Shown here: positions 27,001 to 33,000 of the stretch, piece by piece | Layout: the number at the start of each line of letters is the position of its first letter | Position numbering within the stretch: position 1 is the first letter of the stretch | Source: Escherichia coli | GTDB lineage: Bacteria > Pseudomonadota > Gammaproteobacteria > Enterobacterales > Enterobacteriaceae | Length of the DNA: 64,000 bases | Direction: 5' to 3' (one strand) | Assembly (NCBI RefSeq): GCF_003019035.1 | Contig: NZ_CP027447.1 | Made by a program: the position numbers

Positions 27001-30000
27001 AACACTCGCCGCGACGGGTTGAACAAAGCCACCACCGGGCTGACGCAGGGGATTAGCCTGGTCAACCGTGAACTGGCGATGACCCAGCCACTGGTGAAAC
27101 AGGGGGCGGCGAGCAGCGTCGAAGTGCTGCGCCTGCAACGTCAGGCCAATGAACTGGAAAACAAACTCAGCGACGTGCGCACGCAATATTACGTTCAGGC
27201 GCGCGAAGAGTTAGCGAAAGCCAATGCGGAAGTAGAAACCCAGCGTTCGGTGATCCGCGGGCGGGAAGATTCTCTCACCCGGCTCAACTTTACCGCGCCG
27301 GTACGTGGCATTGTTCAGGACATTGACGTCACCACGGTTGGCGGCGTTATTGCCCCCGGTGGTAAACTGATGACCATCGTGCCGCTGGATGAGCAACTGC
27401 TGATCGAGGCAAAAATCTCCCCGCGCGATGTGGCGTTTATCCATCCGGGGCAAAAATCGCTGGTGAAAATAACCGCTTACGACTACTCCATCTACGGCGG
27501 CCTGCCGGGGGAAGTGGCGGTGATATCACCAGACACCGTGCAGGATGAAGTGCGACGCGATGTTTATTACTATCGGGTGTACATTCGCACTTTCAGCAAC
27601 CATCTGGAAAACAAAAGTAAACAGCAGTTTCCGATATTTCCCGGCATGGTGGCGACGGTCGATATCCGCACCGGCAAAAAAAGCGTGCTGGATTATCTGT
27701 TGAAACCCTTTAACAAAGCACAGGAGGCGTTGCGCGAACGATGAACATTAGCGATGTAGCAAAAATTACCGGCCTGACCAGCAAAGCAATCCGCTTCTAT
27801 GAAGAGAAGGGGCTGGTGACGCCGCCGATGCGCAGCGAAAATGGTTATCGAACCTACACGCAGCAGCATCTCAACGAACTGACCTTACTGCGGCAGGCAC
27901 GCCAGGTGGGCTTTAACCTGGAAGAGAGCGGCGAGCTGGTGAATCTGTTTAACGATCCGCAGCGTCACAGTGCCGACGTCAAACGTCGTACGTTGGAGAA
28001 GGTAGCGGAGATCGAACGGCATATCGAAGAACTGCAATCCATGCGCAACCAGCTACTGGCGCTGGCGAATGCCTGCCCCGGTGATGACAGCGCCGACTGC
28101 CCGATTATCGAAAATCTCTCCGGCTGCTGTCATCATCGGGCGGGGTGAAAATCAGTTAATCCCCGTTTGCACCGAAAGAATATGCTGCAAACTTTCTACC
28201 ATAATGCGCCCCGACTGAAATAAGCCTTCCTGGATTTCGTTGTTAACATTCACAGCGTGAACCAGGGAGGCTAATAACACCACTTGCAAGAAGGCAAAAA
28301 TAAACGCACCGATAATCATAATATGCGTCAGGGGGATTTTCCTTTGCTCCTTCATTTTAAATAACCCACAAACTGACCTTCCTTCATTAAGGCGACTTTT
28401 CCCGTGTGGTGATAAACAATGACGTTATAAAGACCTGACTGATAAACAGTGGCATCTTTATTGTCTTCATCAATTGCACATAATGAATCATTGAGATAAG
28501 CAAAGTTCTTACTGCTCATTCTAAAGGTCATGCCAAATCCTTTATAAATGGCTTTCTTTGCCGCCTGGGCATGTTGTGCGGCTTCTGCATTTTTAAATGC
28601 CTGCGCCTCGGATGCACTTAAAATAGCCGTCTGACGCTGCTGTTCTGCGAGATAACAGGTGTCATGGCTGACGCCCTGCGCCTGGCAATCTGCGATGCGG
28701 GAAGTGGGTGAACTACAGCCAGCCAGTAATATAACCGCCAGCAGGGAAAACGATTTAATGGAGCTATTCATCATTGTTAACCTTAAATAATGTGCGGAAA
28801 ATTGCGAATAAGAAATTGCTGTTAAAATTAGAACGAATATCCCACGCCGACACCCGCACCGAAATCAGATTGTGTATCCGCAGAAATACCTGCTTTAAGT
28901 ACCGTATGCGTTCCGGCATTAAAAGATGTTCCTACAGACACCGCAGATTCACCGTTGAACGTTCCCGCTCCCGCTGACACCATCATCACGTCACCGGTTT
29001 TCACCTGTGGTTGTGAGGCGATAGCAATGGCAGATGCAGTTCCCGCATTGGCTTCTTTACGATTGTCCTCAACTTCGTTTTTCAGAGAATCGAAATGGTT
29101 ATTGAGCGTGTTAATTTGTTGGCTGTTATCTGCGACCCGTTTTTGCGTGTTGGTTAACTGTTGCTGCGTTTGTGCGGAATCTTGTCTCAGACTTTCAATT
29201 TGCTCATGTGCCTGGACAGACTTCTGCGCCAGACTTTGCATTTGTTTATCGTATTGAGCCCTTTCTTTTTGCTGTTGTGCTGCCACATCGGTTGTCAGTG
29301 CATTCATTTTCTGCCCTTGTTCCGTGGTAGTGCGCTGATTAGCCTCATTTTGAGCCGCCAGCCTGGCATTAATCATCTCCTGATAATGCGCGGTATTTTG
29401 CGTATCTCCAGTCGCGGCGAGCGTTTTTTGTGTGGCTACGATCTGCGCCTGTTGCTCTGTAATTTGCGTTTGCTGGGCGTCAGTTACCGCAGACTGTCGG
29501 GCGTTGATCATGCTCTGATAACGGGCGGTTGTCTGTACATCACCTGTAGCGGCAACGGTTTTTTGTCCTGCGTCAGGATCTGTCTGGACAGGGGGAGTCT
29601 GAGTGGTATCAGGTGTTTCAGAAGGGATGTAGTGATGTTCAGTCAAATAGGTATACGCAGCGGGGCTGTTGTCTGTGCGTTCTAAAAAGCGGGTAATCTT
29701 CTGCTCAATCTCCGATTGCGACATGCCGGAGTTAATGGCTGAAAGCTCTGTTGCCGCCGCTTCAATGGTATCACCAGCTAAAACAACAGGGCTGGATGTT
29801 GCTGAAATTATGAGTGCCAGTAAAGCTACGTTTACAGTTTTCATTCATTTTCTCTTGTTCAAAATAAGTCGCATTGATGTTTCTATAAGAAACAAATAAT
29901 ATTGCTTTAAGAAATAAACTGCGTTGCAATTTGATCGAAATCTACGCCGCCATTTGTGTGATGTAAAGCGCATTTTTGTCTTGTGTAAGCGTAAACACCA

Positions 30001-33000
30001 CCAATAAGAAACAAAAATAGTTTCTTATATAAATAAAAAAGGAAATTATTTCGTGCTCTTTCAATGTAAAAAAGAGTAAAGACTTGTTTTGATAAGCGAA
30101 ATAAATTCTGTTTCTGGACTAAACGTGAAGCGGTTCCTGATGTGTGCTAAAATGCGTTTCTTTGATAAATCTCAATTTTTAAGAGGTTTACGCCAGGCAG
30201 GAAATTTAAATGAATGAATTTGAGAAGATTTTTAATGAAATGAATCTGGACCGGGCATTGCTACCGATCCTTTTTCGTTCGAACCGGTCGACAGTGTGGA
30301 AGTATTTAAGCGGCGATAGTACGGCTCCTGCCTCTGCCATGTCGCTGATCATGCTGTTGCAGTTGATCCAGAAACGAAACCCCGATCTGTTAGCCGAATG
30401 GTTAACGCTTTCTGATTTCACCATTCCGCCAGAAGTTTACCTGGACCAACCTGATTACTGGAAAGGGTGGGTGTATACCCAACACAAGGTCAATAAAAAC
30501 GTCCTGGAATATCTAAAAAAACACTATCCGGATGAAGACCAAAAAAGTATGGGTAAAGGCCGGGAAGAGTAATTTTGCCTCTACTCGGCTATATGCCGGA
30601 TGCGGCGCAAGCGCCTTATCTGGCCTACGATTCGGGCATATTTTGTAGGCATGATAAGACGCGTCAGCGTCGCATCAGGCGATGACCGCACGGATGATCA
30701 GCGTTATCCCTTCTATCGCAATGACTTCAACATGCGTACCTGCACCGAGATCCTCGCTGGCGCTGACAGGCCATGAACTGTCGCCGACGCGCATATGACC
30801 GCGCCCGTTGACCAGCGGAGATTCCAGCACAAAACGTCGGCCAATCAGCTGCTGCCCGCGCTGGTTTAAATGACTGTCGCTGTGCTTTTGTTCGCGCACC
30901 CGCCGCGACAACCATTTCCACCACAGCCAGGCGGCGAGCAGCGTCAGGATGGCAAACATCACCCCTTGCCACTCCCAACCCAGCGGCACCAGCCAGACCA
31001 CCAGGCCGGTAATCACCGCTGCCACGCCGCTCCACAACAAATAACCATTTCCGCCCAGCATCTCGGCTGCCAGCAGCAACCCGCCGAGACTGAGCCAGAA
31101 AATATGTGGATGAACGACCATTAACTCCATCATGGCTGAGTCCGTTTGTTGGCGCTGTCTTTCACCAGCTCGGCAATCCCGGCAATCGACCCCATCAGGC
31201 TGCTGGCCTCTAATGGCATCATCACTACTTTGCTGTTACTGGAGGAACCGATCTGCTGTAACGCTTCGGTGTATTTCTGTGCGACGAAGTAGTTCACCGC
31301 CTGAATATCGCCGGAGGCAATGGCTTCAGACACCATTTTGGTGGCGCGGGCTTCCGCTTCGGCAGAACGTTCACGCGCTTCGGCCTGTAAGAATGCCGAC
31401 TGACGTTCACCTTCCGCTTTCAGGATTTGCGACTGTTTTTCACCTTCGGCTTTGAGGATTTCCGCCTGACGGATCCCTTCCGCTTCAAGGATGTAAGCGC
31501 GTTTGGTACGTTCCGCTTTCATCTGCGCGTTCATTGAAGAGATAAGCTCTGCCGGTGGGCGCACGTCGCGAATTTCAATACGGGTGACTTTAATCCCCCA
31601 CGGGTTGGTGGCCTCATCGACAATACGCAGCAGGCGTGAGTTGATGCTGTCGCGCTGAGAGAGCATTTCATCAAGTTCCATTGAACCCAGCACGGTACGG
31701 ATGTTAGTCATGGTCAGGTTGATGATCGCCAGCTCCAGATTGCTGACTTCATAAGCGGCGCGCGGGGCATCAATCACCTGAATAAAGCACACGGCGTCGA
31801 TGGTAACGTTGGCGTTATCTTTCGAGATAACTTCCTGGGAAGGGATGTCGAGCACTTGCTCCATCATATTGATCTTGCGACCAATGCGATCCATAAAGGG
31901 CACCACCAGGCTTAGACCTGGCTGTAACGTTTTGGTATAGCGACCAAAACGCTCTACCGTCCATTGATAGCCCTGCGGCACGATTTTGACGCCCGCGCCG
32001 ACAATGACCAGCGCGACAAAAATGAGAATAGGGATAAAGATAAGCATCGGAAAAACCTCCTGTTGTACCGTCCATAATCAGCAAAATTGCTGCTTGATTA
32101 AACAAATTATACCTGATTACTGAAAGAGAGTTCCCCCTTATTCCTGCGAAGGATAAACTGTTTTTAGTAAAAATCAGAAAAAGGGAACAGTGATGCAGGA
32201 AAATAGTCCTTTGCTTCAGCTACAAAACGTAGGATATCTGGCGAGTGATGCGAAGATTCTTAATAACATCAATTTTTCGCTGCGTGCTGGCGAATTTAAG
32301 TTAATTACCGGTCCTTCTGGTTGTGGCAAAAGTACGCTGCTAAAAATAGTTGCTTCATTGATCAGCCCAACCAGCGGAACGTTACTGTTTGAAGGTGAGG
32401 ATGTCAGCACACTAAAGCCAGAAATCTACCGCCAGCAAGTGTCTTACTGCGCCCAGACGCCGACGCTGTTTGGCGATACGGTATACGATAATCTGATCTT
32501 TCCCTGGCAGATCCGTAACCAGCAGCCTGAACCAGCCATTTTTCTCGATTTTCTCGAACGCTTCGCTTTGCCGGACACCATTTTGACGAAAAATATCGCC
32601 GAGCTATCTGGTGGTGAAAAACAACGCATCTCATTGATTCGTAATCTTCAATTTATGCCGAAGGTTTTATTGCTGGATGAAATCACCAGTGCGCTGGATG
32701 AAAGTAATAAACATAACGTTAATGAGATGATCCATCGTTATGTGCACGAGCAAAATATTGCCGTGCTGTGGGTGACACACGATAAAGACGAAATTAATCA
32801 TGCGGATAAGGTGATTACACTGCAACCGCATGCCGGAGAAATGCAGGAAGCACGCTATGAACTCGCATAATATTACTAACGAATCATTGGCACTGGCATT
32901 AATGCTGGTGGTGGTGGCAATCTTAATTAGCCATAAAGAAAAACTGGCGCTGGAGAAAGATATTCTCTGGAGCGTCGGGCGCGCGATAATTCAGCTGATT

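What the first reader, a model, noticed from the sequence alone, without database searches (positions are those of the whole stretch)
29880..30030. Repeated half-site and perfect palindrome in the divergent promoter region of the autotransporter operon
ataagaaac-N7-gtttcttat (30003-30027) is a perfect 9-bp-arm inverted repeat, and the half-site taagaaacaaa recurs near 29886. This is a plausible operator for the divergently encoded putative HTH protein, or for a nucleoid protein given the AT-richness.
Basis: seen in the sequence. Interest (0 to 1): 0.35.

Follow-up and report, generated by a model that had tools for sequence, protein, structure and literature searches.

The report
Operator array beside an adhesin gene
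The palindrome is real and is one of six conserved copies of a 6-base motif between a small E. coli adhesin operon and a divergent helix-turn-helix gene, most likely the binding sites of that uncharacterised regulator.

Summary
ATAAGAAAC-N7-GTTTCTTAT lies at 30004-30028, and TAAGAAACAAA recurs at 29886-29896.

The window is E. coli. The site sits in the 365-bp, 31.5% GC region between the 338-aa YadA-family trimeric autotransporter gene (28828-29844, minus; O157 z0639) and a 120-aa gene (30210-30572, plus; z0640). Both belong to O-island 29, inserted between cueR and ybbJ.

A perfect palindrome alone is only marginally unusual here (P about 0.07). The hexamer AGAAAC/GTTTCT, however, occurs six times against 0.31 expected. 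Across nine diverged loci it is the most enriched 6-mer (40 against 2.67).

The copies keep two fixed geometries, GTTTCT-N3-AGAAAC and AGAAAC-N7-GTTTCT, which together give a 22-bp period. In seven Escherichia haplotypes the palindrome arms never vary (0/12), while the spacer does (5/7).

The 120-aa protein models confidently as an Xre/Cro-type HTH. Its small family always lies divergent from a YadA-anchor gene.

Best reading: these are operators for this regulator, controlling both divergent promoters. Binding itself is untested.

The parts
30004..30028 (.). Site B: the perfect palindrome ATAAGAAAC-AAAAATA-GTTTCTTAT. Core half-sites are AGAAAC (30007-30012) and GTTTCT (30020-30025).
   Evidence: In 7 Escherichia haplotypes the arms vary at 0/12 positions and the spacer at 5/7 (Fisher p=0.0018). 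The N7 geometry recurs 8 times in 10 loci against 0.21 expected.
29879..29893 (.). Site A1: GTTTCT-ATA-AGAAAC, a 15-bp inverted repeat in the opposite (N3) geometry.
   Evidence: The N3 geometry recurs 10 times in 10 loci against 0.23 expected. In L002 the spacer is TAT instead of ATA while the arms are kept.
29901..29915 (.). Site A2: a degenerate unit ATTGCT-TTA-AGAAAT, 22 bp from A1.
   Evidence: Read. Better copies sit at the same position in other loci, for example L012 GTTTCTATAAGAAAT and L002 GCTTCTATAAGAAT. The same-orientation 22/23-bp spacing occurs 21 times against 0.86 expected.
30110..30115 (+). Site C: an isolated GTTTCT, followed by GGA-CTAAAC as a weak partner.
   Evidence: GTTT is invariant in the 11-locus alignment (G321-T324). 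Variable at 0/6 positions in Escherichia.
30156..30161 (+). Site D: GTTTCT two bases after the -10 element of the 120-aa gene's promoter, over the inferred transcription start. A weak partner ATAAAT lies at N3.
   Evidence: The block CGTTTCTTTGATAAATCTCAATTT is identical even in L015, whose regulator is 62% identical. Variable at 0/6 positions.
29939..29967 (-). Predicted sigma-70 promoter of the autotransporter operon: TTTACA (29967-29962), 17 nt, TAGATT (29944-29939). The inferred start is near 29932.
   Evidence: This is the only promoter-like hit in the scan of 29750-30300. The -35 block is invariant, and the -10 keeps the TAnnnT form with constant spacing in 11 loci. Variable at 0/12 positions in Escherichia.
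30145..30153 (+). Predicted extended -10 promoter of the 120-aa gene: TG-c-TAAAAT. The inferred start is near 30160.
   Evidence: TGnTAnnAT is conserved in the diverged loci: TGGTAAAAT, TGCTATCAT, TGATATAAT. The class is assigned from established knowledge of extended -10 promoters. The start site is not mapped.
30210..30572 (+). The 120-aa gene (O157 z0640): an Xre/Cro-C1-type HTH protein and the candidate binder.
28828..29844 (-). The 338-aa YadA-family trimeric autotransporter (O157 z0639, published as gmrA), first gene of the leftward operon.
   Evidence: Pfam YadA_anchor E=1.1e-11 at residues 279-338. Signal-peptide-like N-terminus and C-terminal ...VGYSF. RefSeq annotates it as a YadA family autotransporter adhesin.
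28152..28774 (-). Downstream operon genes: a 140-aa lipoprotein (28352-28774; lipobox LLAGC; z0638) and a 67-aa ORF (28152-28355).
   Evidence: The same gene order is kept in other genera.

Best explanation

The recognised half-site is 5'-AGAAAC-3'. Half-sites alternate in orientation, with 3-bp and 7-bp gaps, giving a 22-bp (two helical turn) repeat. Dimers would therefore sit side by side on one face of the DNA and probably bind cooperatively.

In E. coli the sites fall at three kinds of position:
- A1/A2 lie in the transcribed leader of the autotransporter operon, about +17 to +53 from the inferred start.
- B, the perfect palindrome, is centred about 84 bp upstream of that start.
- C and D flank and overlap the core promoter of the regulator's own gene.

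I infer that the protein represses its own extended -10 promoter through site D. I also infer that it controls the sigma-70 promoter of the adhesin operon through sites A and B. Repression is more likely than activation there, because sites lie downstream of the start.

Shown here: the motif, its geometry, its conservation, the HTH fold and the gene linkage.

Inferred: who binds, the transcription starts and the sign of regulation.
For: 1. Motif enrichment. There are six exact hexamers against 0.31 expected. AGAAAC/GTTTCT is the top 6-mer in an unbiased scan of nine diverged loci: 40 against 2.67, z=24.5, present in all nine.

2. Fixed geometry. N3 pairs occur 10 times against 0.23 expected, N7 pairs 8 times against 0.21, and the 22/23-bp period 21 times against 0.86.

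3. Purifying selection. In seven Escherichia haplotypes 31% of intergenic columns vary, but only 1 of 36 hexamer positions does (p=3e-5). The palindrome arms vary at 0/12 positions and the spacer at 5/7 (p=0.0018).

4. Positional conservation. The hexamers sit near -332, -322, -203, -191, -101 and -55 from the regulator's ATG in Escherichia. Subsets of these positions are kept in Pseudocitrobacter, Symbiopectobacterium and metagenomic loci (site D near -55 in most, A1 and C in many, both arms of B in few). This holds although the module is inserted at different chromosomal places: cueR/ybbJ, qmcA/fetA, next to nrd genes, and others.

5. The protein. The AF2 model is confident (pLDDT 92.3), and the top structural matches are almost all Xre/Cro-C1 DNA-binding domains. 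The recognition-helix residues do not change.

6. Linkage. The family is tiny: 23 cluster representatives among 1.84 billion proteins and 4 of about 100,000 species genomes. Every member with enough flanking sequence is divergent from a gene in the autotransporter position; eleven of those products carry a YadA_anchor hit, including the 43-44% identical homologues.

7. Co-variation. In L022/L023 the regulator's helix reads PRNTIFNYL instead of NRSTVWKYL. The palindrome there keeps the N7 architecture, but the half-site is one base shorter: AAGAAC-N7-GTTCTT.

8. Co-regulation. Published RNA-seq shows z0638, gmrA and z0640 all expressed in DMEM and all at 0 RPKM after 3 h on HeLa cells (PMC5826968, Suppl. 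Table S3), as expected for one shared control region.
Against: - The protein does not reach any Pfam or NCBIfam threshold; the best hit is MqsA_antitoxin at E=0.08.
- Transcription starts are predicted, not mapped.
- All hosts are Enterobacterales, so a shared host factor could in principle explain the conservation.
- The loci are homologous, so the enrichment statistics are not fully independent.
- E. coli has only one perfect example of each geometry, so which pair a dimer contacts is unresolved.
- Deleting z0640 gave no motility phenotype (PMC5826968). This says nothing about adhesin expression, but it offers no positive support either.
Confidence: 0.6

Rival explanations
1. The hexamer array is bound by a conserved host transcription factor of Enterobacterales, either an unidentified one or one with a GAAAC-type half-site, rather than by the neighbouring HTH protein. 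The HTH protein would then do something else.
For: All loci come from Enterobacterales. Published gmrA expression responds to temperature, pH and osmolarity (PMC5826968), which is typical of global regulators. Boxes resembling FNR and CRP sites are also conserved in the same region, so host factors probably act here as well.
Against: From memory of their consensus sites, the host factors with GAAAC-like half-sites do not fit. KdgR uses GAAAC-N3-GTTTC and Cra uses GAAAC-N0-GTTTC. OmpR and PhoP use direct repeats with a 10-11 bp period. Observed spacings are N3 in the opposite orientation, N7, and a 22-bp period.

The half-site changes to AAGAAC/GTTCTT where the linked regulator's recognition helix changes. 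The motif travels with the module to different insertion sites. In the window, the hexamers outside this region are at about the chance level: 22 in 63.6 kb.
Confidence: 0.2
2. The palindrome is simply part of an AT-rich, horizontally acquired region silenced by H-NS or another nucleoid protein, with no specific operator.
For: The intergenic region is 31.5% GC against 55% for the window. It lies in an island absent from K-12. gmrA is thermoregulated. TTGATAAATC at 30163-30172 resembles the H-NS nucleation motif TCGATAAATT as recalled from memory.
Against: H-NS silencing may well operate on the region, but it does not explain the hexamers. Composition-driven binding does not predict invariance of the G and C positions while adjacent A/T spacer bases drift. 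It also does not predict fixed N3/N7/22-bp geometry, or a z=24.5 enrichment of one specific hexamer over a composition-matched model.
Confidence: 0.08
3. The inverted repeats act as RNA hairpins in the leaders, or the palindrome is a chance feature of AT-rich DNA.
For: The palindrome would fold at -7.8 kcal/mol as RNA (z=-7.4), and A1 at -5.0 kcal/mol. A1 lies in the predicted leader of the adhesin mRNA. A perfect 9-bp-arm repeat arises in 6.7% of simulations.
Against: Site B lies upstream of both predicted promoters, so it is probably not transcribed. Neither arm varies in Escherichia, so no change is compensatory, and in other genera one arm decays while the other is kept. The same hexamer is conserved as single copies at C and D, where no hairpin forms. 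There is no Rfam match and no terminator-like site. Chance is excluded.
Confidence: 0.04

Closest known systems
Controller (C) proteins of restriction-modification systems, e.g. C.Esp1396I and C.AhdI, with their paired operators
   Same: They are small Xre-type HTH proteins and appear among the structural matches. They bind as dimers to two adjacent pseudo-palindromic boxes in front of their own gene, giving cooperative tetramer binding and autoregulation (established knowledge). The adjacent 15-bp units here, spaced 22 bp apart, have the same logic.
   Different: The half-site sequence differs, and the genetic partner is an adhesin operon rather than a restriction-modification system. The array here is larger, spanning about 280 bp and two divergent promoters. 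There is an extra helical C-terminal region of about 50 residues. No sequence-level membership was found.
Aca2, HigA2 and MqsA-type HTH autoregulators (anti-CRISPR-associated and antitoxin repressors)
   Different: No toxin or anti-CRISPR gene is adjacent. The conserved partner is a YadA-anchor autotransporter. Sequence identity is only 16-24%, and Foldseek E-values are weak (0.38 or higher).
[not shown]
   Same: It is the same locus. The region studied here is the gmrA/z0640 intergenic region.

Membership tests
Xre/Cro-C1-type HTH regulator with a palindromic operator | Five-helix Xre-like HTH DNA-binding fold in the candidate binder | tested here: met
   [not shown]
Xre/Cro-C1-type HTH regulator with a palindromic operator | Sequence-profile membership (Pfam HTH_3, HTH_31 or similar above threshold) | tested here: not met
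   The only hit is MqsA_antitoxin at E=0.082 and 13.5 bits, against a cut-off of 30. NCBIfam gives nothing. A PDB profile search gives nothing below E=0.77. Membership therefore rests on fold only.
Xre/Cro-C1-type HTH regulator with a palindromic operator | Inverted-repeat sites at or near the regulated promoters, conserved with the regulator | tested here: met
   Site D overlaps the inferred start of the regulator's own promoter.
Xre/Cro-C1-type HTH regulator with a palindromic operator | Direct, sequence-specific binding of the protein to the sites | not testable with these tools
   This needs EMSA, a footprint or ChIP. None was found in the literature searched.
H-NS / nucleoid-protein silencing site | AT-rich, horizontally acquired DNA | tested here: met
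   31.5% GC against 55% for the window. The island is present in 1413 of 5426 E. coli genomes and absent from K-12 (PMC5826968).
H-NS / nucleoid-protein silencing site | Conservation explained by composition rather than by specific bases | tested here: not met
   The specific hexamer is enriched over a composition-matched model (z=24.5). The G/C-containing arms are invariant while the A/T spacer varies.
Intrinsic terminator or structured RNA | GC-rich stem plus a T-run, or covarying pairs, or a match to an Rfam family | tested here: not met
   No terminator-like site and no Rfam match at E of 1 or below. The arms are invariant rather than covarying.
Known enterobacterial factors with GAAAC-type half-sites (KdgR, Cra, OmpR; consensus sites recalled from memory) | Their characteristic spacing and orientation: GAAAC-N3-GTTTC, GAAAC-N0-GTTTC, or tandem direct repeats every 10 bp | tested here: not met
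   The spacing histogram shows only GTTTCT-N3-AGAAAC, AGAAAC-N7-GTTTCT and a 22/23-bp same-orientation period. The consensus sites themselves were not checked against a database.

The most novel reading that the evidence does not exclude
Probability: 0.4. Interest if true: 0.55.

Novelty: new member of a known kind. Interest (0 to 1): 0.42.

Why it matters
O-island 29 is carried by about a quarter of complete E. coli genomes, including O157:H7, ExPEC and APEC lineages. It has been linked to motility, and its expression switches off on host-cell contact. Nothing is known about how it is controlled.

This analysis gives a concrete model that can be tested directly:
- defined hexamers to mutate;
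- two predicted promoters;

It also shows that the gene published as a transcription factor (gmrA/z0639) has the sequence features of an outer-membrane adhesin. That should prompt a re-examination of how the island affects flagella.

More generally, it adds a small, self-contained regulator-adhesin module that moves between chromosomal sites in Enterobacterales.

Tried and rejected
- **Terminator or structured RNA:** rejected. No terminator-like site, no Rfam hit, a hairpin of only -7.8 kcal/mol with invariant rather than covarying arms.
- **Sequence-family assignment of the 120-aa protein:** nothing above threshold in Pfam, NCBIfam or a PDB profile search. The first AF2 run, on a 14-sequence alignment, was poor (pLDDT 62.6). 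It became confident only after distant homologues from the exhaustive search were added.
- **The search for related loci with the broad alignment A4:** failed for lack of a conserved stretch. With A3 it found only 4 loci among about 100,000 species genomes. That confirms rarity but adds little diversity.
- **Link to the published GmrA target:** the K-12 fliA promoter region has one GTTTCT and no N3 or N7 palindrome, so there is no sign that this operator motif acts at fliA.
- **Toxin-antitoxin reading** (suggested by the MqsA and HigA2 similarity): rejected, because no toxin-like neighbour exists and the conserved partner is always the autotransporter.
- **Known factors considered from memory:** KdgR, Cra, OmpR, PhoP, the RcsAB box, Lrp, IscR and the LysR T-N11-A pattern. 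Spacing or orientation did not fit the observed geometry for the first five. The T-N11-A pattern fits any 15-bp palindrome and is uninformative.
- **Phase variation through the A-run in the spacer:** considered and left as a low-probability note. The spacer is N6, N7 or N8 in different loci, but the run is only 5-7 A, and the two deviant loci carry frameshifted regulator genes.
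Full report
**Where this is**

The window is E. coli chromosome. A 1.8-kb query around the finding matches 1416 of 5426 complete E. coli genomes. In the closest genome, the finding lies in a four-gene insertion between cueR and ybbJ. In window coordinates:

| Feature | Coordinates | Strand |
|---|---|---|
| cueR | 27741-28148 | + |
| 67-aa ORF | 28152-28355 | - |
| 140-aa lipoprotein (lipobox LLAGC) | 28352-28774 | - |
| 338-aa YadA-family trimeric autotransporter | 28828-29844 | - |
| 120-aa ORF | 30210-30572 | + |
| ybbJ | 30675-31133 | - |

- The autotransporter has a Pfam YadA_anchor hit at E=1.1e-11. It also has a signal-peptide-like N-terminus and ends in ...VGYSF.
- The intergenic region, 29845-30209, is 365 bp at 31.5% GC. 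The window overall is 55% GC.
- This insertion is O-island 29 of O157:H7 (PMC5826968).

**The observation**

The perfect inverted repeat is ATAAGAAAC (30004-30012), spacer AAAAATA, GTTTCTTAT (30020-30028). TAAGAAACAAA is at 29886-29896 and 30005-30015.

On its own, a 9-bp-arm perfect repeat is only marginally unusual in such AT-rich DNA: it appears in 6.7% of Markov simulations.

The decisive point is the core hexamer AGAAAC/GTTTCT. It occurs six times in the 365 bp, at 29879(-), 29888(+), 30007(+), 30020(-), 30110(-) and 30156(-). The expectation is 0.31, and none of 20,000 simulations reached six. These six are 6 of only 28 copies in the whole 64 kb.

**Conservation within Escherichia**

I collected divergent haplotypes from complete E. 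coli genomes, down to 84% identity over the region. I added Escherichia sp. E1V33 and E. whittamii.

| Positions compared (7 haplotypes) | Variable |
|---|---|
| All intergenic columns | 112 of 366 (31%) |
| The six hexamers | 1 of 36 (Fisher p=3e-5) |
| Palindrome arms (AGAAAC + GTTTCT) | 0 of 12 |
| Palindrome spacer | 5 of 7 (p=0.0018 against the arms) |

The seven spacers are AAAAATA, AAAAATG, AAAAATT, AAAAAAT, TTAATCC, TTAATTG and TAAAAAT. Invariant arms with a drifting spacer is the signature of a protein-recognised inverted repeat. It is not the signature of an RNA stem or of base composition.

**Conservation beyond Escherichia**

The 120-aa protein has only about 20 relatives in a 5.8-billion-protein collection. 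An exhaustive profile search found 23 cluster representatives among 1.84 billion proteins.

I fetched the genomic context for thirteen of these relatives.
- In every case with enough flanking sequence, the gene is divergent from a gene in the autotransporter position. Eleven of those products carry a YadA_anchor hit; in L008, L012 and L015 the divergent gene has no Pfam hit on record. The intergenic region is usually about 360-380 bp.
- The module sits at different chromosomal positions: cueR/ybbJ in E. coli, qmcA/fetA in Pseudocitrobacter, next to nrd genes in Symbiopectobacterium, and elsewhere in metagenomic contigs.
- The regulator gene, control region and adhesin operon therefore move as one unit.

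An unbiased k-mer scan of nine diverged control regions ranks AGAAAC/GTTTCT first by a wide margin: 40 observed against 2.67 expected, z=24.5, present in all nine. GAAAC/GTTTC gives 58 against 8.8. The hexamers in Escherichia lie near -332, -322, -203, -191, -101 and -55 from the regulator's ATG, and subsets of these positions recur in the other genera.

**Geometry**

With one mismatch allowed, half-site pairs show sharply preferred spacings:

| Arrangement | Observed | Expected |
|---|---|---|
| GTTTCT-N3-AGAAAC | 10 | 0.23 |
| AGAAAC-N7-GTTTCT | 8 | 0.21 |
| Same orientation, 22 or 23 bp apart | 21 | 0.86 |

The basic pattern is therefore a 22-bp repeat, [GTTTCT N3 AGAAAC N7].

In the multi-genus alignment, the position of the E. 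coli palindrome reads TTTCTATTGGAAAC-N7-GTTTCTTTTAGAAAC. The E. coli "perfect palindrome" is thus the inner pair of two adjacent 15-bp units whose outer halves have decayed in E. coli. E. whittamii still has the third half-site, AGAAAC-TAAAAAT-GTTTCT-TTT-AGAAAT.

A degenerate unit follows 22 bp on (29901-29915).

**Promoters**

- *Adhesin operon.* The only sigma-70-like match in the region is on the minus strand: TTTACA (29967-29962), 17 nt, TAGATT (29944-29939). Its -35 block is invariant in 11 loci. Its -10 keeps the TAnnnT form at constant spacing.
- *The 120-aa gene.* An extended -10, TG-n-TAAAAT (30145-30153), is conserved as TGGTAAAAT, TGCTATCAT or TGATATAAT in other genera.

With inferred starts near 29932 and 30160, the sites fall as follows:
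- A2 and A1 lie at about +17 to +53 in the adhesin leader.
- B is centred near -84 of the adhesin promoter.
- C lies at about -50 to -45 of the regulator's promoter.
- D spans that promoter's start.

The starts are inferences from the consensus elements. They have not been measured.

**The candidate binder**

No Pfam or NCBIfam model reaches threshold; the best hit is the MqsA HTH at E=0.08. After distant homologues were added, AlphaFold2 gave a confident model (pLDDT 92.3, pTM 0.82).

- Foldseek gives HigA2 at probability 0.99.
- The HTH occupies residues about 1-67. Roughly 50 further helical residues have no clear match.
- The putative recognition helix (N25 R26 S27 T28 .. K31 Y32) does not change among the close homologues (T28 differs in one). 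This matches the invariant half-site.

In a more distant clade (L022/L023) the helix reads PRNTIFNYL. The control region there carries AAGAAC-ATTTAAT-GTTCTT: the same N7 palindrome architecture with a half-site one base shorter, plus further GTTCT copies.

Another distant locus (L024) has TCTTCATTGG twice, 22 bp apart. This co-variation favours the linked regulator over a host factor, but it rests on few loci.

**Mechanism I commit to**

Repression is more likely than activation at the adhesin promoter, because A1 and A2 lie downstream of the start. The sign is inferred, however.

Published RNA-seq fits a shared switch. z0638, gmrA and z0640 are all expressed in DMEM (RPKM 20, 96 and 44) and all fall to 0 after 3 h on HeLa cells (PMC5826968, Suppl. 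Table S3).

My confidence that these are operators of the neighbouring HTH protein is about 0.6.

**Rivals**

- *A shared host factor (0.2).* This cannot be excluded, because all hosts are Enterobacterales. The geometry does not fit the GAAAC-type factors I could recall (KdgR, Cra, OmpR/PhoP).
- *H-NS or another nucleoid protein (0.08 as the explanation of the hexamers).* H-NS probably also acts on this AT-rich island, but it does not explain base-specific conservation.
- *RNA hairpin or chance (0.04).* These are contradicted.

**Comparison with what is known**

The system works like the small Xre-type autoregulators that bind paired inverted repeats in front of their own operon: restriction-modification C-proteins, Aca proteins and HigA/MqsA antitoxins.

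Membership at the fold level is met. Membership at the sequence-profile level is not met. Binding is untestable here.

Three things are new:
- the regulator family itself, which has no Pfam model and is very rare;
- its obligate partnership with small trimeric-autotransporter cassettes;
- the specific AGAAAC operator with its 22-bp phased array.

I rate this a new member of a known kind.

**Literature clash noticed in passing**

| Primer (PMC5826968 supplement) | Maps to |
|---|---|
| gmrA deletion arm (R) | window 29845-29883, minus strand, abutting the ATG of the 338-aa ORF |
| gmrA deletion arm (F) | directly after the stop of the O157 "YadA family autotransporter adhesin" CDS |
| pET28a primer ATGAAAACTGTAAACGTAGCTTTA | window 29821-29844, minus strand, encoding MKTVNVAL |
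| z0640 deletion arm | abuts the 120-aa ORF |

I did not test their binding data. I only note that the sequence evidence points the other way. The K-12 fliA promoter lacks the operator motif.

**Limits**

- No experiment was possible.
- The transcription starts, the binder and the sign of regulation are inferred.
- The loci are related by descent, so the enrichment statistics overstate independence.
- The genome-wide distribution of the motif could not be scanned.

Noticed in passing
[not shown]
   Followed up: yes
window 30162-30175: An FNR-like box, TTGAT-AAAT-CTCAA, lies immediately after site D and just downstream of the -10 of the 120-aa gene. It is conserved across genera and matches the FNR consensus (as recalled) exactly in L012 (TTGAT-ACAC-ATCAA). 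L008 has TTGAG-AAAT-ATCAA. The same bases also resemble the H-NS nucleation motif as recalled from memory. Variable at 0/10 positions in Escherichia.
   Followed up: partly
window 29943-29971: TACGCC-N8-TGTGATGTAAAGC is the most conserved block of the intergenic region. Beyond serving as -35 and -10 on the minus strand, it contains a CRP-like left half (AAATGTGA in other genera) and an invariant GGCG just upstream of the -10. Ordinary promoter function does not explain either feature.
   Followed up: partly
window 30077-30091: A conserved block, GTAAAGACTTGTTTTG, sits between site B and site C. Several of its positions are invariant in 11 loci. I could not assign it a role.
   Followed up: no
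L010 and L011, at the position of window 30013-30019: The palindrome spacer is N8 in L010 (A-run lengthened) and N6 in L011 (A-run shortened). These are the two loci in which the 120-aa gene is frameshifted at its C-terminus (P0006, P0018); in L011 the adhesin gene is also broken. This may reflect relaxed constraint after loss of the regulator, or slippage in the A-run. With only two loci it is anecdotal.
   Followed up: partly
L002 1290-3029; L004 1245-3047: In the divergent E. coli haplotypes the autotransporter ORF is 579-600 aa, against 338 aa in the window. RefSeq annotates only the C-terminal 349-379 aa, leaving 600-1100 bp unannotated. The passenger domain is thus highly variable while the upstream control region is conserved.
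   Followed up: partly
L022 2845-2865; L017 3824-3835 and 4020-4033; L024 623-654: Distant homologues of the regulator have their own repeated motifs. L022 has AAGAAC-N7-GTTCTT. L017 has GCAGAAA three times plus two TGATAA-based perfect palindromes in both orientations. L024 has TCTTCATTGG twice, 22 bp apart. This suggests operator and regulator co-evolve across the family.
   Followed up: partly
window 1-27744; L001 1-10945: Upstream of cueR lies a very large beta-strand-repeat (RTX-like) protein gene with its type I secretion ABC and HlyD components. These are absent from K-12 and probably account for the window's 55% GC. In the RefSeq record of L001 the giant gene is split into two CDSs.
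   Followed up: no
window 30144-30163: The published gmrA complementation fragment starts at 30163 (primer F-1). It therefore carries the whole control region with sites A-D on a multicopy plasmid. If a regulator binds these sites, such plasmids could titrate it.
   Followed up: no
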